Below are positions 8,008 through 49,842 of a stretch of 64,000 nt of DNA, in pieces. Within the stretch, counting starts at the first letter, position 1. Each line of letters opens with the position of its first letter. The position numbers were made by a program, and so were the translations under genes. The notes beneath the pieces are model-generated. The model saw only the letters and a list, made by a program, of their open reading frames with translations. It made no database searches and had not been told where the DNA came from. This DNA is from Candidatus Poriferisocius sp. (lineage in GTDB: Bacteria; Actinomycetota; Acidimicrobiia; Acidimicrobiales; Bin134): positions 1,426,782 through 1,490,781 of the forward strand of contig NZ_OZ242338.1 in assembly GCF_965208475.1 (NCBI RefSeq). The letters run 5' to 3'.

Positions 8008-11000
8008 TCAGGGATTCCACAACCCCATCGAGCAGATGACGCTCGGCTCGGTTCCGACGCCGCTTCGGGGCGCGGGGAGGCAGAGCCGGCCGTCTCGGTG
8101 GAGATCGATCACCAGCGCGGCCAAATCCTCGGGCGTCCGATTGCGGATGGCGTTGGACAGCTTCTGCTTCACCGCTTCATAGAGGGGCCGCTCGTTGATC
8201 GCATCGAGAACGGCGTCAAGCTCATCGGGGTCGACGAACAGGCTCGGGGCAATCGTTGCACGATGGTCGTTCAGCTTCCGCCAGCACTTCTCCCTCACGC
8301 CCAACAGCGCGCCCGTGGCTCTGTTCGGGGGTGCCCGCAGCGGGCCGTCGAGTGCAATCGCCACCATGTCGTGGTGATCTTCCATGCAGGCGGCCGGAAG
8401 CGTTTCGGGCTCGCAGCGGGACAGGTGCAGTGCCTCCTGTGGAGTGATGCGCCGGGATTCGCCATCGGTTGTGGTGAAGGCGAAGGCGTCTGCCCCGGTC
8501 GCCGATTGGGAGTGCACCACCACCCCTTCGGCAGTCCCACCGGTCTGGGCTTGCATGGCGGCGTACACCACGTTGGGCAGCGACTCAACCCGCTTGGCGA
8601 TCCTGGGATGGCTGTCGGCCGCCTGCCGCCAGATCTCATAGGCCATAGACACCGGATCGACGTCCTCGCCGCCGTCGGCGAATCGGAAGTCGGAGTGCTC
8701 GTCGTAGAGCCCGGAAATGACCGCCCGCTCCGTATCGTCACCGAAGAACTTCTCATCAGAGCCCAGCAGTTCGGCGTTTTCCTCCAGCCGCCCGCGAATG
8801 CGGTCCCGGAGGTTGATCTCCTCGTCCACCGACCCAGCGGGCATCAGCGAATAGACCAGCACCACTTCGGCTCGTTGTCCGATGCGGTCCACCCGACCGG
8901 CCCGCTGCACCAATCGCACAATGGCCCAGGGAAGGTCGTAGTTCACCACGATGCGGGCGTCTTGAAGGTTCTGGCCCTCCGAGAGCACGTCGGTTGATAT
9001 CAGCACCCGCAACTCGGGCTGGTCTCGACCTGCGGTGACGCCCTGGTTGGCCCTGGGCGAGAAACGGCGGGCCAGCGCGGTGGGGTTCTCCGAGTCCCCG
9101 GTGACCGCGGCCACCCCTTCGATGCCGCGACGGATCAATTCCTCGGCCACGTAATCCGCAGTGTCTGCCGCCTCCGTGAACACCAGCGCCTTCTCACCGG
9201 GGTGGCGCCGGGTGATCAACTCCACCAGCGAGGCGATCTTGCCGTCGTTGTCGGCATCCCAGGTGCCAAAGTGGCTGAGAAGCGACCGTATCGCGTCGGT
9301 GTCGGAGCGCAACGCCTCGCCAAACTCCTCTGCGAAGAGCTGAGGCCGCATCCACCGGATCCGACCGGGCCTGGCCTGGGCCAGCTTTTGGTAGGCCCTA
9401 GCTGGAACCGACAGGTCGGGCATTTCGTCGACATTGAACAGCCCCTCTTCGAACAGGTCGCCCTCCTGGGCGTCGAACTCGGCCGACCACAGGGCGTTGT
9501 CCACCGACCCCACCGGCAGCAGCAAGCGGTGGTCGATGGCGTGGATAGCGACGAGGTTTCGCAGCGCGTGGCGGCGAAGCGTGGCCAGAAACGCCGGCCC
9601 CGAAGAGGTGAGGCGCTTGAACATCATGATCCGGTTGAACCCGCTGAGGTTCCCGTTGGCGGAGTTGCGGAGATCGTCGATCACTTCCTGTTCGTCCTCG
9701 GTCGGCGCCACTCGGGGATCGAGATATCGGGCCAGGTTGTAGCGGGGCAACAGCAACTCGGCTATCGCGTCGATGGTGCGCTGGTCCATCATGGCCGCGG
9801 CCGGATCGCTGGGCACCACCTCCCGCTCGAGCGGCACCGCCTCTCTTTCGGGGAAATGGAAGGGCCGCCCGTCGCCAAAACTGAGGTGGGGACGGCCGTT
9901 CTCGTCCTCGTAGGCGTAGTTGTCCTGAATGAATCGACGTGTGCGCCGCACCAGGAACTGCGACATCAGGTCCTGCCAGTCTTCGAGGTGCTCTGATGCC
10001 TGAAATGCGGCCAGCGACGAGGTGCGGCCTTCGCACATCGCGGCGAACTCTGCCTCGCCGTGTTCGGCGACAGCCCGCTCGGGGCGTATGCCCAGGTCGT
10101 CGTCGGGTCTTGCAAACAGCGCGATCTGAGCGGCCACATCGGCGAACCCCTTGTTGTAGGGGGTGGCGGTGAGCAGCAGCACTTTGGAATCGTTCTCGGT
10201 GATGTAGTCGTGAAGGGCCTGGTAGTCCTGACGCTTGGGATTGCGCAGATTGTGTGACTCATCGATGAGCACCAGCCGGTGCCGCCGCATGTCGGGCAGT
10301 TCTCGGGTGACCATCGACAGCGAGAGCACCCGACCGTGAATCTGAAACTCGTGCTGATACGACTCCCACATGCCCACCAGGTTCTTCGGGCACACGACAA
10401 GCGTCTCGAACCCGTTCTCCTCCTGAAGGAGTCGGGCGATAGCCGTGCCCACCATCGTCTTGCCGAGCCCGACCACGTCGCCCACCATCGCCCCGCCCCG
10501 CTGGTTCACGATCCGGGCCGCGATCTTCACCGCCGCAGCCTGGAACTCCAGGAGCCTCTCGGCCATCGAGGCTGGCAGCCCGTACTGGATGAGCCCCTCA
10601 CGGGCCTCATGCGACAGGTGATAGGCCATCTTGAGGTACACCAGGTAAGGATCGAGCGGCGTCTCCGATGCCCATGACTCATCCAGCAGCTCAATCAACT
10701 CAATGTTCGCCGGCACCGAGAACTGGTCGACCCAGCGGTCCTCGAACCAGGCGGCAAGCTTGGCGGTGGCATCGGTGTCGAGCACGTCGACGTTCAGCTC
10801 GCCCTGCTCCCAAAGCCCGGCCCTGGTGAGGTTGGACGACCCGACATAGCCCACCCTGGGCGCCGCGGTGTCGTCGCGGTGGCACAGATAGAGCTTGGCG
10901 TGGAGGCGGTGAGCCAGGAATAGCCGCACCTCCACATCGCCTTCAGCCATCTGCCGACGCAACTTCCGCAGCGCCTTCTCGTCTTCGACCGTGGGGAGGC

Positions 11001-11400
11001 CGACCTGGAGTTGGGCTCGAAGCTCCTTTACCGCCTCATGGCGATGCTGTTCAGCCACCTCATTGGTCACCGGCTGCTCACCCCGCAGCCTCATCAAGCG
11101 ACGCATCTCTTCGTGGGGGGTCTCCGTCATGCCCACCAGCAGGCGAACCTTGGGCCTATTACCACCACGCTCCGGCAGGGCATCTACCCCATCGGCAATG
11201 AGCCGCCAGCCCCGAAGGTTGAAATACCCCACCGCCGCGTCCACCGAGTGCGACGACGCCAGCGACTTGAGCATCACCTCCTCAAGCGAAGTGTCGATGT
11301 TGTCGAGGATGAGAGGCACCAGGACTACTCCCTGTTCCCAAACGTCATCCGGTCTCGCAGATTGCCCGCCGCCTCGTACTGCTCCCTCGTCAACCCCCAA
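8008..11400 (-). CDS. PLD-family (single HKD) nuclease domain fused to SNF2-family helicase
   Basis: - HKD motif: 'HAKLYLCH...VGYVGSSNLTRAGL'.
- SNF2 motifs: 'VVGLGKTMVG', 'LIDESHNLRN', 'LLLTATPYNK', 'DVLSEGQNLQD', 'QRAGRVDRIGQ'.
- About 330 aa of C-terminal region with no motif I recognise.
- Alternative start at GTG 11319 (MPLILDNID...), 9 nt after a GGGAG and just past the methyltransferase stop. Confidence 0.85.
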   Translation of the reverse strand: MGVDEGAVRGGGQSARPDDVWEQGVVLVPLILDNIDTSLEEVMLKSLASSHSVDAAVGYFNLRGWRLIADGVDALPERGGNRPKVRLLVGMTETPHEEMRRLMRLRGEQPVTNEVAEQHRHEAVKELRAQLQVGLPTVEDEKALRKLRRQMAEGDVEVRLFLAHRLHAKLYLCHRDDTAAPRVGYVGSSNLTRAGLWEQGELNVDVLDTDATAKLAAWFEDRWVDQFSVPANIELIELLDESWASETPLDPYLVYLKMAYHLSHEAREGLIQYGLPASMAERLLEFQAAAVKIAARIVNQRGGAMVGDVVGLGKTMVGTAIARLLQEENGFETLVVCPKNLVGMWESYQHEFQIHGRVLSLSMVTRELPDMRRHRLVLIDESHNLRNPKRQDYQALHDYITENDSKVLLLTATPYNKGFADVAAQIALFARPDDDLGIRPERAVAEHGEAEFAAMCEGRTSSLAAFQASEHLEDWQDLMSQFLVRRTRRFIQDNYAYEDENGRPHLSFGDGRPFHFPEREAVPLEREVVPSDPAAAMMDQRTIDAIAELLLPRYNLARYLDPRVAPTEDEQEVIDDLRNSANGNLSGFNRIMMFKRLTSSGPAFLATLRRHALRNLVAIHAIDHRLLLPVGSVDNALWSAEFDAQEGDLFEEGLFNVDEMPDLSVPARAYQKLAQARPGRIRWMRPQLFAEEFGEALRSDTDAIRSLLSHFGTWDADNDGKIASLVELITRRHPGEKALVFTEAADTADYVAEELIRRGIEGVAAVTGDSENPTALARRFSPRANQGVTAGRDQPELRVLISTDVLSEGQNLQDARIVVNYDLPWAIVRLVQRAGRVDRIGQRAEVVLVYSLMPAGSVDEEINLRDRIRGRLEENAELLGSDEKFFGDDTERAVISGLYDEHSDFRFADGGEDVDPVSMAYEIWRQAADSHPRIAKRVESLPNVVYAAMQAQTGGTAEGVVVHSQSATGADAFAFTTTDGESRRITPQEALHLSRCEPETLPAACMEDHHDMVAIALDGPLRAPPNRATGALLGVREKCWRKLNDHRATIAPSLFVDPDELDAVLDAINERPLYEAVKQKLSNAIRNRTPEDLAALVIDLHRDGRLCLPAPRSGVGTEPSVICSMGLWNP

Positions 11401-12989
11401 GCCTGCGCCAACAACCAGTCCGCCTCATCGGTGATGTGGCGCAGCTTCCACATCATGTATCTGCCCACCAGCATTCTTGCGTTTCCACTGCCTCTTAGGT
11501 TGAACTCCACATACTTCACCATTTCGTCTTGAAGCTCCCTGGACAACCCCAACATACGCTGAACTAAACTCACGAGTTCCATGTCACACGGAGGGTGGTG
11601 AGACGCTGCTAAGCGTTCAATGTCACACGGAAGTGCGGATAGCACGCTCCGTGTGACATGGAACTCGTCTCCGAACATCAGCCACCACAAGTACCCCCAT
11701 CGACCGGCCAGGCAAAGCAAGGCCAAGTCTCGAGAACGCTCATTCTGGAAATTGAACCACGAGGGCTGACTTGAGTTTGTGGTTACAGGTCGCCTGGATA
11801 TGGGATCGACTACTGGGGGTTCCGTGACAAATGCTCCCAATGTTTGAACAGCAGCGACCTTCTTGACACCCAAATCAAATAGCTGGCCACTCTTGTTGTT
11901 AACGCTTACAAGTGGAGCACACATCTCTGCAAGTGATGTAAAGGCATCGACTACATCTCCATCATCTATAAACGGCCACTTGGTTGCGTCTCCACAATTG
12001 AAAAGTACTCGTGAAGGATTGCCGTATTCAATCGAAGAGAACAAATATGGGCGGCTAGGAGTCAACCAGCGGTGACACCTTGTCGTGTATATCCTACGTT
12101 TACCTCCTTTGCCAGATATAACTATACTATTTCTCACCTTGGCAGAACCAGAAAATAAACTATCTGAAGCTCTGCTGTAAGAGGACAGCCACAAAGTAGA
12201 GAACTGTACACTTAGGTTATTCCGCAACAACTCAAAATCGTTGCTGTAACACAGCGAGTGCATTACGATCATCGCAAATCGTCCTTTGTCGTTCAACAAG
12301 GTAGATGCGCGCTCGGCACAGACGGCGTAGATGTCTGGACAATTACCGGTCTCATACCCAATCCACTTGTAGTCGAACTGACTGCGTTTCTTGCCTTTGA
12401 GTCCGATGTAGGGCGGGTTGCCGATGATCGCGTCGAAGCCGCCGTTTCTCCAGACGGTGGGGAACTCGGCGAACCAATGGAAGGGCTTGTGGGTTTCCTT
12501 CCAGGTTTCGAGCGGGGCTGCATCGCCTCGCATCTTGTGGAGACCTCGGTCGGCTTGGTCGGCTACCTGACCGATGCGGGTTCTGAGGAGGCCTTTGGCC
12601 CGTTGCAGAGCCGCTAGATCGTCGGTTGAATCTTGAATCGCTACGAACTCCTCGTAGGCCACCGCCGCCGACTCCACGGCGTCCTCCACCTCAGCGATCC
12701 CGAAGGGCAGCACTCCCCTGTCTGAGAACCGCCGCTCGATATCTTCAGCGTCGGCGATTCCTACAAGGAGGTTGCCGGACTTGATGTTGAAGTCCAGGTC
12801 GGGGAGCGGCTCGATGTGGGAGGCGTTGTCGAGTTGGGCGGCCAACTTCAGAAACAGCCGCAGCTTGGCGATCTCGGCTGCCTCGGCCATGAGGTCGACG
12901 CCGTAGAGGTTGTTCAGGCAGAGAGTCTTAAGCAGCCAGTAGCGCGTGCTGGTGTGGGCCCGGGCCTCTCGGAGAAATGGGGCTTCCAC
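11325..12989 (-). CDS. C-terminal fragment of Eco57I/PglX-like N6-adenine DNA methyltransferase (motif IV + putative target-recognition domain)
   Basis: 'NLYGVDLMAEAAEIAKLRLFLKL' and 'FDAIIGNPPYIGLKGKK' (NPPY motif IV). Its frame joins the upstream fragment if the G tract at 12991-13001 changes by +1 or -2. Confidence 0.8.
   Translation of the reverse strand: MEAPFLREARAHTSTRYWLLKTLCLNNLYGVDLMAEAAEIAKLRLFLKLAAQLDNASHIEPLPDLDFNIKSGNLLVGIADAEDIERRFSDRGVLPFGIAEVEDAVESAAVAYEEFVAIQDSTDDLAALQRAKGLLRTRIGQVADQADRGLHKMRGDAAPLETWKETHKPFHWFAEFPTVWRNGGFDAIIGNPPYIGLKGKKRSQFDYKWIGYETGNCPDIYAVCAERASTLLNDKGRFAMIVMHSLCYSNDFELLRNNLSVQFSTLWLSSYSRASDSLFSGSAKVRNSIVISGKGGKRRIYTTRCHRWLTPSRPYLFSSIEYGNPSRVLFNCGDATKWPFIDDGDVVDAFTSLAEMCAPLVSVNNKSGQLFDLGVKKVAAVQTLGAFVTEPPVVDPISRRPVTTNSSQPSWFNFQNERSRDLALLCLAGRWGYLWWLMFGDEFHVTRSVLSALPCDIERLAASHHPPCDMELVSLVQRMLGLSRELQDEMVKYVEFNLRGSGNARMLVGRYMMWKLRHITDEADWLLAQAWGLTREQYEAAGNLRDRMTFGNRE
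11572..11668. repeat. 22-bp perfect inverted repeat (53-nt spacer) inside the methyltransferase 3' half
   Basis: acgagttccatgtcacacggag (11572-11593) is the reverse complement of 11647-11668. A third partial copy, caatgtcacacggaag, lies in the spacer. Confidence 0.9.
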
Positions 12990-14566
12990 ACCCCCCCCCC
13001 CGCGGCAATCTCTTCGGCGCGATTCAACACCGCTGTGTACAGGGGGTCGAGCACGTCATGGGCGGCCAGCAGGAACGCTCCCGATCCCACTGTGGGATCG
13101 CAAACCGTCAGAGAGCGGAGCACCTCGAACGCTCGCTGGCACTCGTCGGCAGAGTTGAGCGTGTAATAGAGGTAGTCGGCCAGCAGCGCGGCAAGATCCA
13201 GGTTCTGCGTGACAGCGTCGTTGATGTCGGCTACGCCTCCAGAATCCACCAGCTCTTTCTGCTCGGCGTATCGCTTGCGGCGATGGCTCACGTCGCACCA
13301 CCGCTCGCCGGGCAAGGTGATGTCCAGCCCCCCGTCAGGAAACTCGCTGGGCGGCAGATCGCCCTCAGGCAAGGGCACATCGATTCCGTAACCCATAGCG
13401 TCGTGCAAGTAGTCGTCGCCGCTGCTGGACAACAGCTCGCACGGACTCTCGAGGCCGGCATCCACCAGCCTGTCGGCAATAGCCGGAATGATGGCCGAGG
13501 TGGCCATGTAACCGGTTACGTCTGGTTTGGTGTAATACGCCCCTTGCTGCTTCTTGTTCACATACTGCTCGAAGATGAATCCCAAGATGTCGGGGTTGAT
13601 CTCCTTGGCATCGCCAGTGGGCCGCTCGTCGAGATGCCAGCGCCACTGGTCGAAGAAGTCGAACAGCTTCTCGAAAGCCGTGTCGGGAATCTCGATGCAG
13701 TAAGCGCCTTCCAGCGCGTGGGGCTCGAAGATGCCACCGTTCACATAGGGCACATCGCCAATGATCTGCTCGATCGCCGCATCGTCGTAGCGGCGGGCCG
13801 CAGGCGGGCTTCCCAACCCCTCGTGGAACAGCGGCAGCAGGAACTGGCGGAAGAATGCGTAGAACCGGTCGTCCCCGAGGCGCTCTCGCACCATTCCCAG
13901 CCGCTTGCGGAGGTAGTGGGTGTCGCCGGCCACGAAGCCCTTGCGCTGGATGAAGTACACGAACATGAGACGGTTCATCAGCACCGACGCATACCAGCGC
14001 TGGTCGTCTGGCCTGGGAATGCCCTCGATATGCTCGGCCAGTCGCTCATGATGGTCTTTGAACTCCCGGAAGAACGACTTGGTGACCTTCTCCACGTTGA
14101 ACGACCGCCGCACCCGTTCGAGCACCCTTACTGCGGTCAGCTCCGGCTGCTCAGCCATGGTGAAACAAACATCGCGCAGGCGTTGCAGCAGAGCATCGTT
14201 GCCGTGGTGCGGGCGATAGTGGTGATCCACGAGCCGATGCCCCACCCCGGAAGGACGCTGCTCCGGCCACAGCCAAAGCTGCTCCCCCGGTGAGGCGAAC
14301 ACCACGAGCTGGTCACGCGACAAACGCTTCGCCGCCTTCACGATCTTATGCTGCACCGACCGAAGCGGAATCTCGCTGCACCCCACCGACCAAACCGTCA
14401 CGCCCCGCTTGTCGGCCACTGCCTCTGCGTCCCAAACCGATTCCTCGGCCTCAACGGCGACAGCCAAGCCATGAATGGGGTTGTCCCAACCAAGCCGCCG
14501 GAACAAACCGCCGAAATCATCGGCGTCCATATATTCCTGCATCTCCTGGTCGGATGGCCCAGGCAT
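12914..14566 (-). CDS. N-terminal fragment of the same N6-adenine DNA methyltransferase (N-terminal domain, motif X, motif I)
   Basis: 'QQGAYYTKPDVTGYM' (motif X) and 'LTVCDPTVGSGAFLLAAHD' (SAM motif I). 'YASVLMNRLMFVYFIQRKGF' is the helix typical of Type IIG/PglX-like N-terminal regions. It terminates about 25 codons after the G tract. Confidence 0.8.
   Translation of the reverse strand: MPGPSDQEMQEYMDADDFGGLFRRLGWDNPIHGLAVAVEAEESVWDAEAVADKRGVTVWSVGCSEIPLRSVQHKIVKAAKRLSRDQLVVFASPGEQLWLWPEQRPSGVGHRLVDHHYRPHHGNDALLQRLRDVCFTMAEQPELTAVRVLERVRRSFNVEKVTKSFFREFKDHHERLAEHIEGIPRPDDQRWYASVLMNRLMFVYFIQRKGFVAGDTHYLRKRLGMVRERLGDDRFYAFFRQFLLPLFHEGLGSPPAARRYDDAAIEQIIGDVPYVNGGIFEPHALEGAYCIEIPDTAFEKLFDFFDQWRWHLDERPTGDAKEINPDILGFIFEQYVNKKQQGAYYTKPDVTGYMATSAIIPAIADRLVDAGLESPCELLSSSGDDYLHDAMGYGIDVPLPEGDLPPSEFPDGGLDITLPGERWCDVSHRRKRYAEQKELVDSGGVADINDAVTQNLDLAALLADYLYYTLNSADECQRAFEVLRSLTVCDPTVGSGAFLLAAHDVLDPLYTAVLNRAEEIAAGGGVWKPHFSERPGPTPARATGCLRLSA
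12991..13001 (-). repeat. Homopolymeric G11 (C11 on + strand) inside the methyltransferase catalytic domain
   Basis: Direct count gives c x11 at 12991-13001. It lies between motif I and motif IV. A length of 12 or 9 would give one roughly 1,080-aa ORF. Confidence 0.95.
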
Positions 14567-14707: not shown

Positions 14708-15322
14708 TTGTCACCGGTTGATGATATGCTTACAGCCATGAGGTTTGCCCCTGACCAGGCCGAACACACCGAGGCCCATAACTCCGCTGTAGACGGTTGC
14801 GGGGCTTCGGTGTGCATCAAGGGCTCGGCCAGAGGCATTGCCCTAGTGCTGGTGGCCGACTACGACGCCACCAGCCGGGAACTGGTCAACGCCCGCCTCG
14901 GCGACGGCACCCCGCTGCCGATGAAAGAACTCGTCCGGCTGGCCCTCAAAGCAGACATCTTCCCCGCGGTGTTCGACGCCAAGACTCAGAATCTGTGGCT
15001 CGGGCGCAGCAGGCGTACCGCCACCGACGCCCAGCGCATCGCCTTGATGGTACGCGACCAAGTCTGTATCGGCTGCGGCGGCGCCCCGAGCCGGTGTTTC
15101 GCCCATCATGTCAAGTTCTGGAAGAACAACGGGCCCACCGACTACCCCAACCTCGTCTTGGTCTGCAACGACTGCCACCACGAAATCCACGAACAAGGTT
15201 TCCAAGTCACGCAAGACCCCGGCACCGGCCGCTGGCAAACCCATCCCCCACCCGACCCATTCCCCGACACCGGCACAACAACTTGGCAACCCGTACACGC
15301 TGATTCCGTGCTGATGTGTTGA
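14708..15322 (+). CDS. HNH endonuclease domain protein, apparently N-terminally truncated (DUF222/13E12-type)
   Basis: 'RDQVCIGCGGAPSRCFAHHVKFWKNNGPTDYPNLVLVCNDCHHEIHEQG' HNH motif. Only about 110 aa precede it, whereas actinobacterial relatives normally carry a roughly 250-aa DUF222 region. Confidence 0.7.
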   Translation: MSPVDDMLTAMRFAPDQAEHTEAHNSAVDGCGASVCIKGSARGIALVLVADYDATSRELVNARLGDGTPLPMKELVRLALKADIFPAVFDAKTQNLWLGRSRRTATDAQRIALMVRDQVCIGCGGAPSRCFAHHVKFWKNNGPTDYPNLVLVCNDCHHEIHEQGFQVTQDPGTGRWQTHPPPDPFPDTGTTTWQPVHADSVLMC

Positions 15323-27506: not shown

Positions 27507-30500
27507 GGCCGGGCTCGGGATCGCACAGGTAGTCGTACACGCCGGCCAGGTTCTGATCCCAGCGGGCGTGGCGGGCGGCGATGTCGGCCAGGCCCTGCTC
27601 GGCCAACCGCCGGCGGCGGTCGGGGTCTCGGGCCAGGGCCACGATCTCGGCGGCCAGCCCGTCGGCGGTCTGAGGCGATTGCATGCAGTTGTGGTCGTGG
27701 CGCAGCAGCCAGTCGCCGGCCGGGTTCTCGAACGAAACCACCGCGGCGCCGCAGGCCATCAGCTCCAACGGCAGATAGGAGGGGTGCTCGGAGGTGGTGA
27801 GGGCCACTCCGATGTCGCAGGTGCGGTACAGCGGTCCGGTCTCCCGGTAGTCGAGCTGGCCCATGTGGGTGATGAGGGCGTCCATGTGCTCGGGGAAGGC
27901 CCACGACCCGGCGGTCACGATGCGCACGCCGTCGGCCAATTCGTCCTTCACCAGGCGCACGGCCCGGGCGGCCAGCTCCCAGCAGTTGCGCAGATGGCCG
28001 GGGCGGGCATAGATGAACACGGTCACCGGGCGGTCGGGGTCGGGCTCGATGCGGCCGCGGGCGTGGAAGACCGAGCCGTCCACCGCGGGCCAGAAATGGC
28101 GGGCTACCCCGTCGTAGCCATCCTGGTACATGTCGGCCAGATGCCCGGTGTTGCACAGTCCGTAGAGTCCCAATCGGTAGCTGTGCTCGGCCAAGGCATA
28201 CAGCGTGCCCGCCGGGTAGAACATGGGCTCGAAGTCCTGGATGAGATAGAAGCGGCGGACCTGGCCGGGAGTGCGGGCCGCGAAGTAGGCAGTGGTCCAC
28301 ATGGTGGCAATGGCCGCGTCGGCCGGAGGCACCTCGCCGGGATCGAAGGCGAATGAGTCGTGATAGGCGATGGGGCTGTCGGCCAGCGAGGCGAAGGCCG
28401 CGGAGATCCCCGACCGATACCACCGCTCGTCGTGGTCCACCGGGCCCGCCATCACCATGAACCGGTTCTCCACCCCGTGATGGGCGGCGAGGTGGTCGGC
28501 CAGGCGGAACACGGTGTGGATGCCGCCGTAGAACGGGTTCTGGAACTCGGGCACGAACCAGTTGACCGTTCCCACCTCCCGGCGCCGTCCAACCGCCCGG
28601 TGGCCTTGGCGTACCGCTTCGGCCAGGCCTCGGTCGGCTTTGGAGACCAGCGCCAGGGCGTGGGCCTCCCCCGCCTCGTTGCGCTGGTAGAAGACCTCCA
28701 TTTGACGCCCCAGCATCTGGGCGAGCTGCTTGAGCACCCCCGGCTCCTCCTCGCAGTGCAGCACCGGCTCGGGATGGGCCGCGCTGAGGTTCGGGGAGAA
28801 ATAGGGGTCACCGCCCATCAGCCACCGCTGGTATGGCCAATAGCTGGCGAACACGTCGCCTTCGGGCACATGCGCGCCTCGGGTGGCCGCCTCCTTGTGG
28901 GTGATAGGGGTGGCTGGGGAGACCACATTGCGGTACCCGGCCTGCCGGGCCCGCAACCCGAGCACCACATCGCTGCCGCACAGCTCCAGGCGCTCGTCGA
29001 ACCCCCCGACCTCCTCGAACACCGCCCGGCGCACCGCGAGGCAGGCCCCGGTGACCGACACTGTGTTTCGAGTCCAGTCTGTCGACCCGAGCAGGCTGTC
29101 GGAGTGCGGTGCCATGCCCTGGAACAGGTGCCCGGCCAAACCGGTCATCCCGATGACCACCCCGCCGTGCTGGATGAGACCGTCGTCGTCGATGAGCTGG
29201 AGCCCGGCCACCCCGATCTCGGGGCGTTGGGCCCAGCCAATGATGTTGTGGAGCCACTGGGGGTGACCGGGCGAGGTGTCGTCGTTCAAGAACACCAGCA
29301 CGTCGCCGGTAGCCTGGGCCGCGGCCCGGTTGTTGACCGCCGAGTAGTTGAACGGCTCGTCCCACCAGATGATCTGGGGCGACAGATCGGCAGCATGGGC
29401 CTCGTACCACCCCTCGTTCTCCTCGCTGCGCCCGCCGTTGTCCGCGATGACCAGCTCCAGCCCAAGATGGCCCGCCGATCGGATCAGGGCCAGCGCACCG
29501 GCCAGCATCTCTCGGTTGTGGCGGCTGGCGATGATGACGCTGACCTGGGCGGTGCGATCCGGCGACCACGTCAAGTGGATGCCGTTGGGCCCGGCCTCGG
29601 CTCTGGCAGGCCAGCGATGGCGGGCCAGCCAGCGGTCCACCAGTTCCCGGTGGTGGGGCTCGACTTGATCGCACCGGCGGCTCAGGGCCTGCAACACCGC
29701 CGGCAGGCGGCACACCTGTTGTTCGCCCACATCCAAACCCAGCAGCACATCCCACCACAATGCGTCGTCATCGGATCCCGCGCCCTGATGGCGAAGCGCG
29801 GTTTCCGGCCCAAGGCGCCGGGCCCGCACCGCGAATGCCCGTCCGATGTAGTTCGCGCACCCCAGAAGGTCGGGCGACCAACCCGGTTTGATGCGTGGGT
29901 CGCCAATCTTGGCCAAATCGCTGCCGGAGTAGACGCCCTCGGGCCTGCCGTCGAGGTACCAGTCCCACACATCGGCCAGATCAGAGAGGTCGTCGTCCCA
30001 GTACACCAACTCCAGCCACGGATCCCGCCACGCCGCCTGGGCCATCTGGTAGGCGGCGTCGGCCCGCAACCGGTCACCGGCCCGCAGCATCACCACCAAG
30101 TCGTCGGGATGCTCCTGAGACAGTCGGGTGAACTCATCGGCCAATCCGCCCGGTTCGGCCTTGACCACCTCCACCAACCCCCACGACTGGTTTCGCAGCG
30201 AGGCCTCAGAGGCGGCCACATCGCCCCCGTCGTCCACCACCACCCCCCAAACCCTCCGCGGGCGCGGCCACTCCTCGAACCACTGGCGCTGAACCGCCAA
30301 GATGCTGGGATCGGCCGGCAGGCGGCAGAACCAGTCTTGATAGGCGAACCCCGACGACTGGGCCGACGATTCCCGTCCCGGTTGCCGACCGGGCTCATGC
30401 CTGGCCCCTGCCCGGCGCCGCTGCCACTCGTCTCGGGTGCGGACCGCGGCACTGCGACCCTCCCGAACAACCACCATCAACCCGCTGATCAGCCTTCGGC

Positions 30501-30546
30501 GACGGGTCCCCGGAGGCAGAACTCGCTCAAGAAGGCGCCGGACCAC
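27499..30546 (-). CDS. Multidomain glycosyltransferase (GT2 domain(s) + C-terminal WsaF/GT4-like rhamnosyltransferase-type domain)
   Basis: 'VSVIIASRHNR...VFLNDDT' GT-A domain. C-terminal 'VNWFVPEFQNPFYGGIHTVFRLA' resembles the WsaF-type domain. An 8-nt overlap with wzm. Confidence 0.75.
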   Translation of the reverse strand: MVRRLLERVLPPGTRRRRLISGLMVVVREGRSAAVRTRDEWQRRRAGARHEPGRQPGRESSAQSSGFAYQDWFCRLPADPSILAVQRQWFEEWPRPRRVWGVVVDDGGDVAASEASLRNQSWGLVEVVKAEPGGLADEFTRLSQEHPDDLVVMLRAGDRLRADAAYQMAQAAWRDPWLELVYWDDDLSDLADVWDWYLDGRPEGVYSGSDLAKIGDPRIKPGWSPDLLGCANYIGRAFAVRARRLGPETALRHQGAGSDDDALWWDVLLGLDVGEQQVCRLPAVLQALSRRCDQVEPHHRELVDRWLARHRWPARAEAGPNGIHLTWSPDRTAQVSVIIASRHNREMLAGALALIRSAGHLGLELVIADNGGRSEENEGWYEAHAADLSPQIIWWDEPFNYSAVNNRAAAQATGDVLVFLNDDTSPGHPQWLHNIIGWAQRPEIGVAGLQLIDDDGLIQHGGVVIGMTGLAGHLFQGMAPHSDSLLGSTDWTRNTVSVTGACLAVRRAVFEEVGGFDERLELCGSDVVLGLRARQAGYRNVVSPATPITHKEAATRGAHVPEGDVFASYWPYQRWLMGGDPYFSPNLSAAHPEPVLHCEEEPGVLKQLAQMLGRQMEVFYQRNEAGEAHALALVSKADRGLAEAVRQGHRAVGRRREVGTVNWFVPEFQNPFYGGIHTVFRLADHLAAHHGVENRFMVMAGPVDHDERWYRSGISAAFASLADSPIAYHDSFAFDPGEVPPADAAIATMWTTAYFAARTPGQVRRFYLIQDFEPMFYPAGTLYALAEHSYRLGLYGLCNTGHLADMYQDGYDGVARHFWPAVDGSVFHARGRIEPDPDRPVTVFIYARPGHLRNCWELAARAVRLVKDELADGVRIVTAGSWAFPEHMDALITHMGQLDYRETGPLYRTCDIGVALTTSEHPSYLPLELMACGAAVVSFENPAGDWLLRHDHNCMQSPQTADGLAAEIVALARDPDRRRRLAEQGLADIAARHARWDQNLAGVYDYLCDPEPGHD

Positions 30547-30673
30547 TACGACACCCTACCCGGACACCGAGGACCGGCTTTCACCCGCCGAACCATTCCG
30601 CCTACCGCCGCTGGCCCCCGCGACCGCGCTTCACCGCGGGGGGTACTTGATGAGAGGGGGCGAAACTGGGAGC

Positions 30674-33600
30674 ATGTCAGGGCGGGCGGCCAACCGTTTT
30701 GGACGTTCTATGCCCTGGCAGCGGCCGGCGCCGATGAGGTGCCCTCGCTTATCTCTGCTACTCGCCGCCTCGTCGGCCCTGGCGATCGCGGCTTCGATGC
30801 TGATTTCAGCACCGGTTCTTGCCCAAGACAGCTCCGATCCCGAGCCGGCGCTCGTGGTCGACCCCGACGCGGAGATCACCTTCTCGGGAAGCGGTTGGGG
30901 CCACGGGGTGGGCATGAGCCAGTGGGGGACCTACTCCCGGGCCCTCGCCGGGCATCTCGTCGCCGACATCTTGAACTACTACTACGAGGGCGCCGAGCTG
31001 GTCGAGAACTACGGGCGTCCCGAGGGCGGCCCCGACCCCAGGCCAACGCCGACGCCCGCGCCAACCCCGGTCCGGGCGCCGACACCGACTTCGCCCGAAG
31101 ATCCCGCTCTCGTCTTGCTGGCCACCGCCCAATCCACCACCCTCACCCCCGGAGGCCTCAACCGCATCACCATCGACAACACCGACATACCCCACGACGG
31201 CCAGGAAACAACCCGACCCCCCGCGGGCACCCCCATCACCTTCACCCGCGCCGACGGCCGCTGGCACATCGCCTACAACGGCATCGACATCTGCCCCAAC
31301 GGCTGCGCCGGCCAAACCGCCCAACTCCACTTCGCCACCGACACCGCCGTAGCCGTATCCAACACCGGACGCTCCTACTCCCACGGGCGCATCAACCTCA
31401 CCACCACCGCCCAAGACCCAAACCGGTTCCACATCACCCTCGACTCCCTCACCATCGACAAATACCTAAACGACCCCCACAACCATCCGGCCTCACAACA
31501 AGAGGCACCCGAGACTCCCCCGCTCGTCTTGCTGGCCACCGCCCAATCCACCACCCTCACCCCCGAGGGCCTCAACCGCGTCACCATCGACAACACCGAC
31601 ATACCCCACGACGGCCAGGACGCAACCCGACCCCCCGCGGGCACCCCCATCACCTTCACCCGCGCCGACGGCCGCTGGCACATCGCCTACAACGGCATCG
31701 ACATCTGCCCCAACGGCTGCGCCGGCCAAACCGCCCAACTCCACTTCGCCACCGACACCGCCGTAGCCGTATCCAACACCGGACGCTCCTACTCCCACGG
31801 GCGCATCAACCTCACCACCACCGCCCAAGACCCAAACCGGTTCCACATCACCCTCGACTCCCTCACCATCGACAAATACCTAAACGACCCCCACAACGCC
31901 ATCTTCGGGATCCCCGAACCGGAGCTCGGACCGCCCCCCGAGCCGGTGTACCCCGAGGATGCCATTCGCATTCTGCTGGCCACCACCGCCGGCACCACGC
32001 TGACCCCCGGGGGCCCCAACCGCATCACCATCGACGGCCAGGGCGACATCCGGATACCTGCGGGAACCCCCGTCGCCGTCACCCGCCATGGCAACCACTG
32101 GCACATCGTCCACAGCGGCATCGACGTCTGCGGCGCAGGCTGCGCCGGGCAAACCGCCCAACTCCACTTCGCCACCGACACCTCGGTGGCTGTCTCCAAC
32201 ACCGGACGCTCCTACTCCCACGGGCGCATCAACTTGGTTCCCACCGGCGGGACACCCACCGAGTTCTACGTGGTCCTCGATTCGATGGCCATGGAGGACT
32301 ACCTGCGGGGCATCGCGGAGGTGCCATTGGACTGGCCGCTGATCGCCCAAGAAGTCCAAGCCATCGCCGCTCGCAGCTATGCCACCGCCACGCTCCGGGA
32401 ACGGCGGGCGTCAGCCTCGTGGACCAGGCCGTTCGACCTGTACTCCACCGTGTGGGATCAGGCATTCGTGGGCGACACCCGGGAGAAGCACGCCAGCGCC
32501 GGAACATGGCTCCAAGCGGTGACCAACACCGCGGGCCAAGTGCTGTTCTACGAGGGGGCGCCGATTCGGGCGTTCTACTCCTCCTCCAACGGCGGCCACA
32601 GCGAGCGCAGCAGCTACGTGTTCCACGCCGACCTCCCCTACCTGCCGGCCAAGCCCGACGAATTCGACACCCAAAACAGCCCCCATGCCACCTGGGAACG
32701 CGCCTATGGGGTGCGCGACTTCAACCAGTGGCTGAACGACCACCCCGACACCTCGGTGGGCCAGCTTCAGAGCATGGAGATCTCCGGCGGCGCCGGGGTG
32801 TCGGGCCGGGTGGACAAGGCCGACATACGGATCACGGGCACCACCCGCACCGTCACCGTCACCGGCAGCCGGCTTCAGAGCCGGATCAACACCGCGGCCG
32901 GAGAGCGCGGGCAGGGACAACTGCTGTCCACCAAGTTCGCATTCAGCCTCCCGGTAGACACGCTCGTCGCCGACACATCCCAGCCGGCCCCGCCAGGGGA
33001 GGCGCCGCGCGATGATGCCGTGTTCTTTTCGGGGATCATCGACGGCCCCGACTTCTGCTTGAACCGCAGCCTGGGCGGACCCACCACCTACCCCCACGAC
33101 AGCGACGGCGACGGCATAGCCGACGTCTGCTCCCTCCCCCGCACCCGCCGGGAAGCCGCCGCCCGACAGCAGACCCTGGAGAATATGGCCATGCTGCCGG
33201 GATTCAGGGAACGCTTCAGCGCCTACCTGGCCGAGGAATGCCTCTCGGTGCCCGAGACCCTCGGCGAGCCCGACAAAGAGCCGGCCGACGAATGCCAGCA
33301 GCACCGAACGCGCTCGGCCAATGCGCCGGCTGACACCGGTTCGCCCCCGCCCGTGTCCACTGCCCCGGCGCCGCCCATCAGCAACGACGGATCGCCGGGC
33401 GAAACCGGAGACGGGCTCTACTTCTCGGGGGTCATAGACGGCCCCGACTTCTGTCTGAACTACAGCCTGGGCGGACCCACCACCTACCCCCACGACAGCG
33501 ACGGCGACGGCATAGCCGACGTCTGCTCCCTCCCCCGCACTCGCAGGGAGGCCGCCGCCCGACAGCGGGCCCTAGAGCGTGTGGCGCTCGACAGTCCCGG

Positions 33601-33715
33601 CGAGTTCGCCCTGCTCTTGCGGTTGGCCTGCATACAGGGCCCCAAGACTCTGGGGGAGCCCGACAAAGAAGCCCTCGACCAGTGCCAACCCCATCTCGAC
33701 GCCCAGCCAGATTGA
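30674..33715 (+). CDS. Secreted SpoIID/LytB-domain protein with duplicated N-subdomains and two C-terminal Asp-rich Cys repeats
   Basis: - Signal peptide 'LSLLLAASSALAIAASMLISAPVLAQ'.
- 'GWGHGVGMSQWGT...ILNYYY' near the N-terminus.
- 'YLRGIAEVPLDWP...QAIAARSYA...FYSSSNGGHSE' SpoIID core.
- The start could also be ATG 30650 or 30710. Confidence 0.8.
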   Translation: MSGRAANRFGRSMPWQRPAPMRCPRLSLLLAASSALAIAASMLISAPVLAQDSSDPEPALVVDPDAEITFSGSGWGHGVGMSQWGTYSRALAGHLVADILNYYYEGAELVENYGRPEGGPDPRPTPTPAPTPVRAPTPTSPEDPALVLLATAQSTTLTPGGLNRITIDNTDIPHDGQETTRPPAGTPITFTRADGRWHIAYNGIDICPNGCAGQTAQLHFATDTAVAVSNTGRSYSHGRINLTTTAQDPNRFHITLDSLTIDKYLNDPHNHPASQQEAPETPPLVLLATAQSTTLTPEGLNRVTIDNTDIPHDGQDATRPPAGTPITFTRADGRWHIAYNGIDICPNGCAGQTAQLHFATDTAVAVSNTGRSYSHGRINLTTTAQDPNRFHITLDSLTIDKYLNDPHNAIFGIPEPELGPPPEPVYPEDAIRILLATTAGTTLTPGGPNRITIDGQGDIRIPAGTPVAVTRHGNHWHIVHSGIDVCGAGCAGQTAQLHFATDTSVAVSNTGRSYSHGRINLVPTGGTPTEFYVVLDSMAMEDYLRGIAEVPLDWPLIAQEVQAIAARSYATATLRERRASASWTRPFDLYSTVWDQAFVGDTREKHASAGTWLQAVTNTAGQVLFYEGAPIRAFYSSSNGGHSERSSYVFHADLPYLPAKPDEFDTQNSPHATWERAYGVRDFNQWLNDHPDTSVGQLQSMEISGGAGVSGRVDKADIRITGTTRTVTVTGSRLQSRINTAAGERGQGQLLSTKFAFSLPVDTLVADTSQPAPPGEAPRDDAVFFSGIIDGPDFCLNRSLGGPTTYPHDSDGDGIADVCSLPRTRREAAARQQTLENMAMLPGFRERFSAYLAEECLSVPETLGEPDKEPADECQQHRTRSANAPADTGSPPPVSTAPAPPISNDGSPGETGDGLYFSGVIDGPDFCLNYSLGGPTTYPHDSDGDGIADVCSLPRTRREAAARQRALERVALDSPGEFALLLRLACIQGPKTLGEPDKEALDQCQPHLDAQPD
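31109..31897 (+). repeat. Two near-identical tandem 414-bp units within the SpoIID-like gene (a third, diverged copy follows at about 31960-32290)
   Basis: 31109-31483 versus 31523-31897 differ at only a handful of positions. The period is 414 nt (138 aa). Confidence 0.9.
33023..33581 (+). repeat. Two copies (period 396 bp) of a module of about 55 aa, 'F(F/Y)SG(I/V)IDGPDFCLN.SLGGPTTYPHDSDGDGIADVCSLPRTRREAAARQ'
   Basis: The core of about 78 bp is identical in both copies (agcctgggcggacccaccacctacccccacgacagcgacggcgacggcatagccgacgtctgctccctcccccgcac). Confidence 0.9.
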
Positions 33716-49819: not shown

Positions 49820-49842
49820 CCCCCCCCCCCCCCCCCCCCCCC
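49820..49842 (-). repeat. Homopolymeric G23 (C23 on + strand) immediately 5' of the signal-peptide coding sequence
   Basis: Direct count gives c at 49820-49842. Confidence 0.95.

What the first reader, a model, noticed from the sequence alone, without database searches (positions are those of the whole stretch)
12991..13001. G11 homopolymer splits the methyltransferase one nucleotide away from a full-length reading frame (possible phase-variable switch)
On the coding (minus) strand the sequence reads GCC GCG GGG GGG GGG GTG TGG…
- With 11 G the N-terminal fragment terminates about 25 codons later.
- The downstream fragment (…GGT GTG GAA GCC CCA TTT = …VEAPFLREARAH…) comes into frame only if the run is 12 or 9 G.
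- The break falls between SAM motif I and NPPY motif IV, so neither fragment can be a functional MTase alone.

Homopolymer slippage in mod genes is the classical mechanism of phase-variable Type III systems ('phasevarions'). Here it would also perturb translational coupling to the nuclease-helicase. The alternatives are a fixed inactivating mutation, transcriptional or ribosomal slippage, or a homopolymer sequencing error.
Basis: seen in the sequence. Interest (0 to 1): 0.7.

Follow-up and report, generated by a model that had tools for sequence, protein, structure and literature searches.

The report
Poly-G on/off switch in defence methylase
An 11-G run knocks a DNA-methylase gene of a restriction-like defence system out of frame, and relatives in sponge-symbiont bacteria carry similar runs of differing length at the same spots, which fits a reversible slippage on/off switch better than a dead gene.

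Summary
An 11-G run at 12991-13001 (minus strand) splits a 1080-codon PglX/Eco57I-like N6-adenine methyltransferase between motif I and NPPY. A run of 12 or 9 G restores a full-length protein.

Comparative evidence favours a hypermutable slipped-strand switch.
- Syntenic orthologues in two Illumina-only sponge metagenomes carry G10 and G8 at the same site.
- More distant homologues carry G9 (in frame), G12 and G13 there.
- Other Acidimicrobiia copies carry G9-G17, C10, C12 or (TC)10 at two further loop sites.
- In each case the repeat is the only lesion, and a change of one base restores about 1080 codons.
- Runs of 9 or more are about 240 times enriched in these genes over Acidimicrobiia background.
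- The out-of-frame downstream half is still under purifying selection (dN/dS about 0.2).
- The downstream PLD-SNF2 nuclease-helicase gene is intact in all 22 Acidimicrobiia-clade loci where it was checked.

Nearly all sampled alleles are OFF. Switching within one population cannot be shown without reads.

The mechanism has precedents in Streptomyces pglX and Campylobacter cj0031. The host clade and the two-gene system are new for it. A second run, G23, lies upstream of a secreted-protein gene in the same window.

The parts
12991..13001 (-). G11 homopolymer (C11 on the + strand). This is the slippage-prone tract. It is in frame at G12 or G9 and out of frame as sequenced.
   Evidence: Homologous tracts at the same site: L082 G10, L083 G8, L087 G12, L017 G13 and L001 G9.
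11325..14566 (-). The whole methyltransferase gene, 1080 codons once the frame is restored. It is a PglX/Eco57I/MmeI-like gamma-class N6-adenine MTase with an N-terminal domain, a helical region, the catalytic domain and a C-terminal TRD.
   Evidence: PADLOC PDLC03628 matches end to end at E=3.8e-170. Pfam Eco57I matches at 1.9e-25. Full-length homologues are 1050-1100 aa. The AF2 model of the 75%-identical P0001 has BrxX/PglX as its best PDB match.
12914..14566 (-). N-terminal fragment ORF as sequenced (550 aa). It holds residues 1-524 including motif I (13073-13099), followed by a 25-residue out-of-frame tail.
11325..12989 (-). C-terminal fragment ORF (554 aa) in the other frame. It holds NPPY (12408-12419) and the TRD (about residues 755-1040). 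A GTG lies directly after the tract.
   Evidence: dN/dS is 0.18-0.20 against the orthologues.
8008..11319 (-). PLD(HKD) nuclease-SNF2 helicase gene (1103 aa), the presumed restriction partner. Its GTG start lies 5 nt after the MTase TAG, with AGGGAG just upstream of it.
   Evidence: Pfam PLDc_2, SNF2-rel_dom and Helicase_C; PADLOC 'HKD+Snf2' and DrmD-like. Junction read. Intact in a single frame in all 22 Acidimicrobiia-clade loci checked.
14708..15322 (+). HNH/DUF222 gene fragment at the upstream edge of the lower-G+C two-gene island.
   Evidence: Full-length DUF222-HNH genes adjoin the system in L170 and L171.

Best explanation
The G11 run is a hypermutable simple-sequence tract. It sits in a surface loop of the methyltransferase/specificity subunit of a two-gene, restriction-modification-like defence module. 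The module pairs a PglX-like N6A-MTase with a PLD-SNF2 nuclease-helicase, in a sponge-associated Acidimicrobiales bacterium.

Slipped-strand mispairing during replication changes the run by one base. That toggles the gene between in frame (G9 or G12, full 1080-aa enzyme) and out of frame. The sequenced G11 allele is OFF: translation stops 25 codons after the tract, before motif IV and the TRD.

The MTase carries the target-recognition domain. The nuclease-helicase gene starts 5 nt after the MTase stop codon. OFF is therefore inferred to silence methylation and, through lost coupling or a lost partner, restriction as well.

Shown: the tract, the frame arithmetic, length polymorphism among orthologues, both states in the family, purifying selection, and enrichment. 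Inferred: high-frequency reversibility in a living population, the defence function, and the polar effect on the nuclease.
For: 1. Frame arithmetic and a full-length match after adding one G.

2. Orthologous loci with shared flanks on both sides, at 84-89% nt identity, carry the same flanking sequence GCCGC[Gn]CGTGGAAGCC with G10 (L082, Sarcotragus foetidus) and G8 (L083, Aplysina aerophoba). The window has G11. Both of those assemblies are Illumina-only (PMC5099237 and PMC5649159).

3. At the same site, L001 has G9 in frame, L087 has G12 and L017 has G13, the last two out of frame.

4. At two other loop sites:
- L005 G11
- L007 G9
- L009 G10
- L016 G9
- L022 G17
- L010 C12
- L084/L085 C10
- L008 (TC)10
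- L170 G17, in frame
In every out-of-frame case a change of one base restores 1070-1220 codons stop-to-stop, so the repeat is the sole lesion.

5. Enrichment: 13 tracts of 9 or more in 84 kb of these genes, against 1 in 1.57 Mb of Acidimicrobiia background. That is about 240-fold, Poisson P about 5e-27. None occurs in the adjacent helicase genes. None occurs in the MTase genes of 64 loci from other phyla or of 11 viral loci.

6. dN/dS for residues 530-750, downstream of the tract and out of frame in all three genomes, is 0.18, 0.20 and 0.37. Upstream it is 0.10-0.20.

7. The same poly-Gly peptide is encoded by interrupted codons in L171, L172 and L173. These are stabilised alleles.

8. The tract maps to a loop between two helices in a model with pLDDT 91. 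The same loops carry in-frame (ER)n and (GRTD)n repeats in other members.

9. Elsewhere the window looks clean. A G8 run in ftsQ is in frame, and five adjacent ORF pairs that might have been halves of split genes carry unrelated Pfam families or none, which gives no sign of frameshift splitting.

10. Precedents exist: the G tract in Streptomyces pglX (PMC4365076) and the poly-G tract in the Type IIG gene cj0031 of Campylobacter (PMC4889913).
Against: - No reads are available, so heterogeneity and reversibility within one population are untested.
- No in-frame allele was found in the window's own lineage. G8, G10 and G11 are all OFF.
- Among tract-bearing loci retrieved without regard to frame, 0 of 12 are in frame (P=0.008 if lengths were random). 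A simple unbiased switch does not predict this. It needs selection for OFF, or another way of expressing the gene.
- Many tract-bearing loci come from long-read MAG assemblies, where long homopolymers are the main error mode.
- Defence activity has never been shown for this two-gene family.
Confidence: 0.7

Rival explanations
1. Homopolymer length error in this assembly. The real genome would have G12 (or G9) and the gene would simply be intact.
For: - An 11-base G run is hard for every platform.
- Several homologous tracts come from long-read MAGs (OZ... chromosomes and ctg..x_c contigs).
- One SPAdes contig (L004) ends 12 nt before the tract.
- The window's platform is unknown.
Against: - Out-of-frame lengths at the same site occur in Illumina-only assemblies: L082 G10, L083 G8 and L087 G12.
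- L008, a contig whose NODE_..._cov_ name indicates a SPAdes assembly, is out of frame at a (TC)10 repeat.
- The corrections needed go both ways (+1 and -1), so there is no systematic under-calling.
- ON tracts G9 and G17 come from the same long-read pipeline.
- No other gene in the window looks frameshifted, and a G8 run in ftsQ is in frame.
- Even if this particular length were wrong, the tract and its family-wide pattern would remain.
Confidence: 0.12
2. Plain decay. The tract is only a mutational weak spot, and the gene is an irreversibly dying pseudogene with no adaptive switching.
For: - Defence genes are often lost.
- Other family members carry lesions unrelated to repeats: L006 has a 1-nt deletion, L054 is N-terminally truncated, and L086 has a frameshift near residue 855.
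- OFF alleles predominate.
Against: - No second lesion exists in any of the 13 repeat-disrupted copies.
- dN/dS is about 0.2 in the part that is out of frame in all three orthologues, over dS of about 0.3-0.5.
- The partner gene is intact in all 22 Acidimicrobiia-clade loci where it was checked.
- Repeats of different kinds (G, C, TC) have arisen independently at three sites, and tracts are about 240-fold enriched in a clade that otherwise avoids them.
Confidence: 0.1
3. Expression from the out-of-frame genotype. RNA-polymerase or ribosome slippage on the G run would supply a low dose of full-length enzyme. Alternatively, re-initiation at the GTG just after the tract could yield two fragments that complement each other. 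'OFF' would then really be 'low'. This does not exclude DNA-level switching.
For: - 0 of 12 frame-blind alleles are in frame, although selection maintains the full coding sequence.
- G GGG GGG lets tRNAs re-pair in any frame (sequence).
- A GTG follows the tract in the downstream frame.
- The split falls in a permissive loop.
Against: - The frame shift needed differs between alleles (+1 in some, -1 in others), so no single programmed direction fits.
- No stimulatory RNA structure lies downstream (z=+1.04).
- From general knowledge, transcriptional slippage is best documented on A/T runs, not G/C runs.
- The C-fragment lacks motif I.
Confidence: 0.08

Closest known systems
Pgl (BREX type 2) pglX of Streptomyces coelicolor: phase variation through a G tract (Sumby & Smith 2003, as cited in PMC4365076)
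   Same: - Both are in an actinobacterium with high G+C.
- Both have a poly-G run inside the coding sequence of a PglX-type N6-adenine MTase of a phage-defence system.
- In both, contraction or expansion of the run turns the gene on or off.
- The best PDB matches of the family model are BrxX/PglX.
   Different: - No PglZ, PglW or PglY (BrxC) genes are present. The partner here is a PLD-SNF2 nuclease-helicase.
- NCBIfam PglX models score far below their cut-offs (68.7 against 500).
- Switching has been measured in Streptomyces but not here.
cj0031 of Campylobacter jejuni: phase-variable Type IIG R-M enzyme with a poly-G tract (PMC4889913)
   Same: - Both are Eco57I/MmeI-like MTase-TRD polypeptides.
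- In both, an intragenic G tract sets ON or OFF.
- The PADLOC model that the window protein matches is labelled Type IIG.
   Different: - cj0031 is a single-polypeptide enzyme with its own nuclease. Here the nuclease lies in a separate PLD-SNF2 gene.
- The host here is an uncultured marine symbiont, not a low-G+C pathogen.
Phase-variable Type III mod genes (phasevarions)
   Same: - A repeat in the mod/specificity gene, not in the nuclease gene, switches the system.
- The nuclease-helicase partner is left intact.
- The TRD is swapped between alleles.
   Different: - The MTase belongs to a different class and its TRD is placed differently.
- The partner has an N-terminal PLD nuclease with an SNF2 motor, not a DEAD-type helicase with a C-terminal PD-(D/E)xK nuclease.
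- No evidence for a regulon.
Type-2 BREX-related (Hma) systems (PMC12839542)
   Same: Both combine an N6-MTase with an HKD-endoDNase-Swi2/Snf2 helicase fusion as the effector.
   Different: The DUF499 ATPase and DUF3780 that define those systems are absent from the window island and from five homologous loci.

Membership tests
SSR-driven phase-variable (contingency) locus | Long simple-sequence repeat inside the ORF whose length sets the reading frame, with no other lesion | tested here: met
   The G11 run is in frame at G12 or G9 and there is no other stop codon in 1080 codons.
SSR-driven phase-variable (contingency) locus | Tract length differs between close relatives at the orthologous site | tested here: met
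   G11 (window), G10 (L082) and G8 (L083), with shared flanks and synteny on both sides.
SSR-driven phase-variable (contingency) locus | Both ON and OFF lengths occur in nature | tested here: inconclusive
   ON alleles are seen only in more distant members: L001 G9 at the same site and L170 G17 at site B. All three alleles of the window's own lineage are OFF.
SSR-driven phase-variable (contingency) locus | Coding sequence downstream of the repeat stays under purifying selection | tested here: met
   dN/dS is 0.18-0.37 for residues 530-750.
SSR-driven phase-variable (contingency) locus | High-frequency reversible switching, or mixed lengths, within one population | not testable with these tools
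   This needs raw reads or cultures. The window's proteins are not in the exact-match contig collection.
Type III restriction-modification | Mod with an internal TRD, plus Res built as an SF2 helicase with a C-terminal PD-(D/E)xK nuclease | tested here: not met
   The MTase is Eco57I/PglX-like with a C-terminal TRD. The partner is an N-terminal PLD with an SNF2 motor.
BREX / Pgl | PglZ and the BrxC/PglY ATPase in the locus; PglX above the curated model cut-off | tested here: not met
   The island holds only two genes. NCBIfam BREX PglX models score 25-69 bits against cut-offs of 400-900.
Type-2 BREX-related / Hma system | DUF499 AAA+ ATPase and DUF3780 next to the MTase and the HKD-SNF2 helicase | tested here: not met
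   The window's neighbours are LytR, an epimerase, HNH/DUF222 and a chorismate-binding enzyme. Neither DUF appears in L001 or L170-L173.
DISARM class 1 | DrmA helicase and DrmB (DUF1998) together with DrmD and DrmMI | tested here: not met
   There are only partial hits to DrmD and DrmMI, and no DrmA or DrmB gene.
Type IIG R-M (PADLOC model PDLC03628 REase_MTase_IIG) | Nuclease and MTase-TRD in a single polypeptide | tested here: inconclusive
   The model matches end to end at E=3.8e-170. No catalytic nuclease motif was verified in the N-terminal domain, and the conserved partner gene supplies a PLD nuclease.

The most novel reading that the evidence does not exclude
In this clade the out-of-frame genotype would be the selected resting state, since 0 of 12 frame-blind alleles are in frame while the full coding sequence stays under purifying selection. 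The enzyme would then be supplied at a low, tunable dose by RNA-polymerase or ribosome slippage on the G run, or by complementation of two fragments split in a permissive loop. The G23 run upstream of a secreted-protein gene would belong to the same pattern. Sponge-symbiont Acidimicrobiia would then run a poly-G 'phasome', something so far associated with small-genome pathogens.
Probability: 0.1. Interest if true: 0.8.

Novelty: new member of a known kind. Interest (0 to 1): 0.6.

Why it matters
Repeat-driven phase variation of restriction-modification genes is textbook for Neisseria, Haemophilus, Helicobacter and Campylobacter. It is known once in actinobacteria, in Streptomyces pglX.

Here the same device appears repeatedly, and apparently independently at three loop sites, in uncultured, high-G+C Acidimicrobiia that live in marine sponges. 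It sits in an uncharacterised two-gene methylase plus PLD-SNF2 module, and nearly all sampled alleles are OFF.

If confirmed with reads, three things follow.
- Contingency loci would extend to environmental symbionts.
- Many 'pseudogenised' defence genes in MAGs would have an explanation. Annotation pipelines would miscall them.
- It would offer a natural handle on the cost-benefit dynamics of defence systems in a phage-rich host environment.

Tried and rejected
- Exact-pattern scans of species-representative genomes for the window's tract flanks found nothing. The window's species is not in that collection.
- Exact-protein look-ups of the window's N-fragment, helicase and chorismate-binding protein found no contig. 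Multi-sample comparison of the very same contig was therefore impossible.
- Programmed ribosomal frameshifting: there is no downstream RNA structure, and the shift direction needed differs between alleles.
- The tract as a recombination junction: the window's N-half resembles L082/L083 and its C-half resembles L001. A sliding-window comparison puts the breakpoints near residues 440 and 720-760, not at the tract.
- Viral contigs hold only distant relatives (27-38% identity), and none has a tract.
- The extra ORF between the MTase and helicase genes in L009 has no Pfam hit.
- Promoter and terminator scans around the operon did not exceed the shuffle controls.
- My recollection that LXNI was the Aplysina hybrid assembly was wrong. 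The papers show it is the Sarcotragus foetidus Illumina assembly.

Full report
**Observation**

The minus strand at 12991-13001 is a run of exactly 11 G. It interrupts a gene that runs from 14566 down to 11325.
- The upstream ORF (550 aa) carries motif I, DPTVGSGAF, at 13099-13073. It ends 25 codons after the run.
- The downstream ORF (554 aa) starts VEAPFL directly after the run and carries NPPY at 12419-12408.
- Adding one G or removing two fuses the two ORFs into 1080 codons. Other lengths do not.

Composition alone does not make the run remarkable: dinucleotide shuffles give 0.85 G11 matches per window. Real Acidimicrobiia DNA does make it remarkable, with one run of 9 or more in 1.57 Mb.

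**What the genes are**

The repaired protein matches PADLOC model PDLC03628 end to end (E=3.8e-170). It also matches Pfam Eco57I and MmeI_Mtase. Its homologues are 1050-1100 aa.

An AlphaFold model of the closest homologue, P0001 (75% identity), is confident (pLDDT 91.2, pTM 0.93). Its best solved relatives are the BREX methylase BrxX/PglX, followed by DrdV, CamA, LlaBIII and MmeI. The gene therefore encodes a gamma-class N6-adenine methylase with an N-terminal domain and a C-terminal target-recognition domain (TRD).

Five bases after its TAG, and preceded by AGGGAG, a GTG opens an 1103-aa gene. That gene encodes an N-terminal PLD (HKD) nuclease fused to an SNF2 helicase.

The pair forms a lower-G+C island (59-60% against 67%). 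The island lies between housekeeping genes: LytR and an epimerase on one side, and an HNH/DUF222 fragment and a chorismate-binding enzyme on the other.

The same two genes are adjacent in all 22 Acidimicrobiia-clade loci checked, and the nuclease-helicase is intact in each.

The system fails the membership tests for four known families (PMC12839542).
- Type III: wrong MTase class and wrong Res architecture.
- BREX/Pgl: no PglZ or BrxC, and PglX models score far below cut-off.
- DISARM: no DrmA or DrmB.
- Type-2 BREX-related/Hma: no DUF499 ATPase and no DUF3780.

It is best described as an uncharacterised, compact, R-M-like module. By architecture it should work like an R-M system in which the methylase subunit provides target recognition.

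**Organism**

DnaE in the window is 83% identical to that of Candidatus Poriferisocius aerobius and of an Acidimicrobiales MAG. The closest MTase homologues come from sponge-associated Acidimicrobiia.

**The tract in relatives**

This is the decisive evidence. Three repeat sites exist. Site C is the window's site, near residue 520. Site B is near residue 400 and site A near residue 310.

- *Orthologues.* Two metagenome contigs share both flanks, the N-terminal two-thirds of the MTase and the helicase with the window, at 84-89% nt identity. They have the same sequence around the run, GCCGC[Gn]CGTGGAAGCC. L082 (LXNI01000057) has G10 and L083 (MKWU01007373) has G8, and both are one base away from the in-frame G9.
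- *Platform.* LXNI is the Sarcotragus foetidus assembly (Illumina MiSeq, IDBA-UD). MKWU is the Aplysina aerophoba Illumina-only SPAdes assembly (PMC5099237 and PMC5649159). These calls do not depend on long-read homopolymer accuracy.
- *Same site, more distant copies.* L001 (P0001) has G9 in frame. L087 has G12 and L017 has G13, both out of frame. The SPAdes contig L004 simply ends 12 nt before the site.
- *Site B.* Other Acidimicrobiia copies carry G9, G10, G9, G17, C12, C10 and a (TC)10 dinucleotide repeat. Site A carries G11. L170 has G17 at site B in frame, at 192x coverage.
- *Sole lesion.* In every out-of-frame case, changing the repeat by one base restores an ORF of 1070-1220 codons.
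- *Stabilised alleles.* In L171-L173 the same Gly-rich peptide is written with mixed codons, such as GGGAGGCGGGGGG.
- *Structural position.* All three sites fall in loops of the model. Site C is the loop 517-522 between helices 491-516 and 523-529. The same loops carry in-frame (ER)n and (GRTD)n expansions in other members.

**Statistics**

- There are 13 tracts of 9 or more in 84 kb of these MTase genes, against 1 in 1.57 Mb of background. That is about 240-fold (Poisson P about 5e-27).
- No run of 9 or more lies in the helicase genes of the Acidimicrobiia-clade loci.
- No tract occurs in the MTase genes of 64 homologous loci from other phyla or of 11 viral loci.
- GGG makes up only 24-33% of Gly codons in these genes.

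**Selection**

Between the window and its orthologues, dN/dS for residues 530-750 is 0.18 and 0.20. Between L082 and L083 it is 0.37. This region is downstream of the tract and out of frame in all three genomes. Upstream of the tract the values are 0.10-0.20, at dS of about 0.1-0.6. The downstream half has therefore been translated in the MTase frame for most of the divergence. That is what a reversible switch predicts and what an old pseudogene does not.

The TRD (about residues 755-1040) cannot be aligned between the three orthologues. The window's TRD is about 85% identical to that of L001. Specificity modules are evidently exchanged. The breakpoints lie near residues 440 and 720-760, not at the tract.

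**The sequencing-error rival**

Four things argue against a simple length error.
- Illumina-only assemblies also give out-of-frame lengths.
- The corrections needed go in both directions.
- ON tracts come from the same long-read pipeline as OFF tracts.
- The window has no other frameshifted gene that I could find, and a G8 run in ftsQ is in frame.

I cannot exclude that the true length here is 12. That would change the state of the switch, not its nature.

**What remains odd**

Among tract-bearing loci retrieved without regard to frame, none of 12 is in frame (P=0.008 under random lengths). Either OFF is favoured in these sponge populations, for example by a cost of the nuclease or a benefit of gene uptake, or some expression occurs from the out-of-frame genotype.
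- No stimulatory RNA structure follows the tract.
- The shift direction needed varies between alleles.
- I therefore rate slippage-dependent expression as a minority possibility.

**Known parallels and verdict**

The closest precedents are the G tract in Streptomyces coelicolor pglX (PMC4365076) and the poly-G Type IIG gene cj0031 of Campylobacter (PMC4889913). Full-text searches found no report of phase-variable R-M in sponge symbionts or Acidimicrobiia.

The mechanism is of a known kind. The host clade, the two-gene system and the multi-site convergence are new.

Noticed in passing
window 49820-49842 (C23 on +, G23 on -): A second, longer homopolymer lies about 35 nt upstream of the likely GTG start and signal peptide of a roughly 900-aa secreted protein (47076-49790, minus strand). 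That protein has a 'choice-of-anchor R' domain (NCBIfam, E=3e-24). This is the classic position for a phase-variable surface-protein gene. The gene is absent upstream of dnaE in the two closest genomes (L090, L091).
   Followed up: partly
window 11400-12300 (MTase residues about 755-1040), compared with L082, L083 and L001: The target-recognition region cannot be aligned between the three syntenic orthologues. The window's version is about 85% identical to that of the otherwise more distant L001. This is a mosaic gene with swapped specificity modules. Breakpoints lie near residues 440 and 720-760.
   Followed up: yes
L003 and L012 (site B); L002, L021, P0005, P0007 and P0071 (site C); P0064: The loops that hold the G/C tracts carry long in-frame tandem repeats in other family members: (GRTD)n or (GRSV)n with up to about 20 units, (ER)n, and (PAQPS)n. 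These loops are general slippage hot spots.
   Followed up: partly
L173 6148-6154; protein P0100: The NPPY motif is encoded as AAC CCC CCC TAC, which gives a C7 run. P0100 goes out of frame immediately after GNPP. This suggests a further slippage-prone spot inside the catalytic motif.
   Followed up: no
L001 (ENA ERZ25070917 ctg125309_11x_c, 431,941 bp, named circular): The in-frame G9 allele sits on a 432-kb contig among many small ORFs, a WhiB gene, a TnpB/OrfB_IS605 gene and a RAMA-domain gene. The contig may be a megaplasmid or a very large phage rather than a chromosome.
   Followed up: no
L008, L009, L010 and L016, between the MTase and helicase genes: A 1.2-1.5 kb insert separates the two genes in this subclade. 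In L009 it holds an ORF of about 370 aa (8408-9514) with no Pfam match.
   Followed up: partly
window 14708-15322; L170 and L171 downstream of the helicase gene: A DUF222-HNH endonuclease gene adjoins the system. It is a fragment in the window and full-length in L170 and L171. It may be a mobility or accessory gene of the island.
   Followed up: no
window 31094-31897 and 47100-47700: A 414-bp tandem duplication (97% identical, 1.9 copies) lies inside the large ORF 30344-33715 (+). In the secreted protein, a duplicated C-terminal module of about 90 aa is separated by a poly-Q run, (CAA)n at 47371-47390.
   Followed up: no
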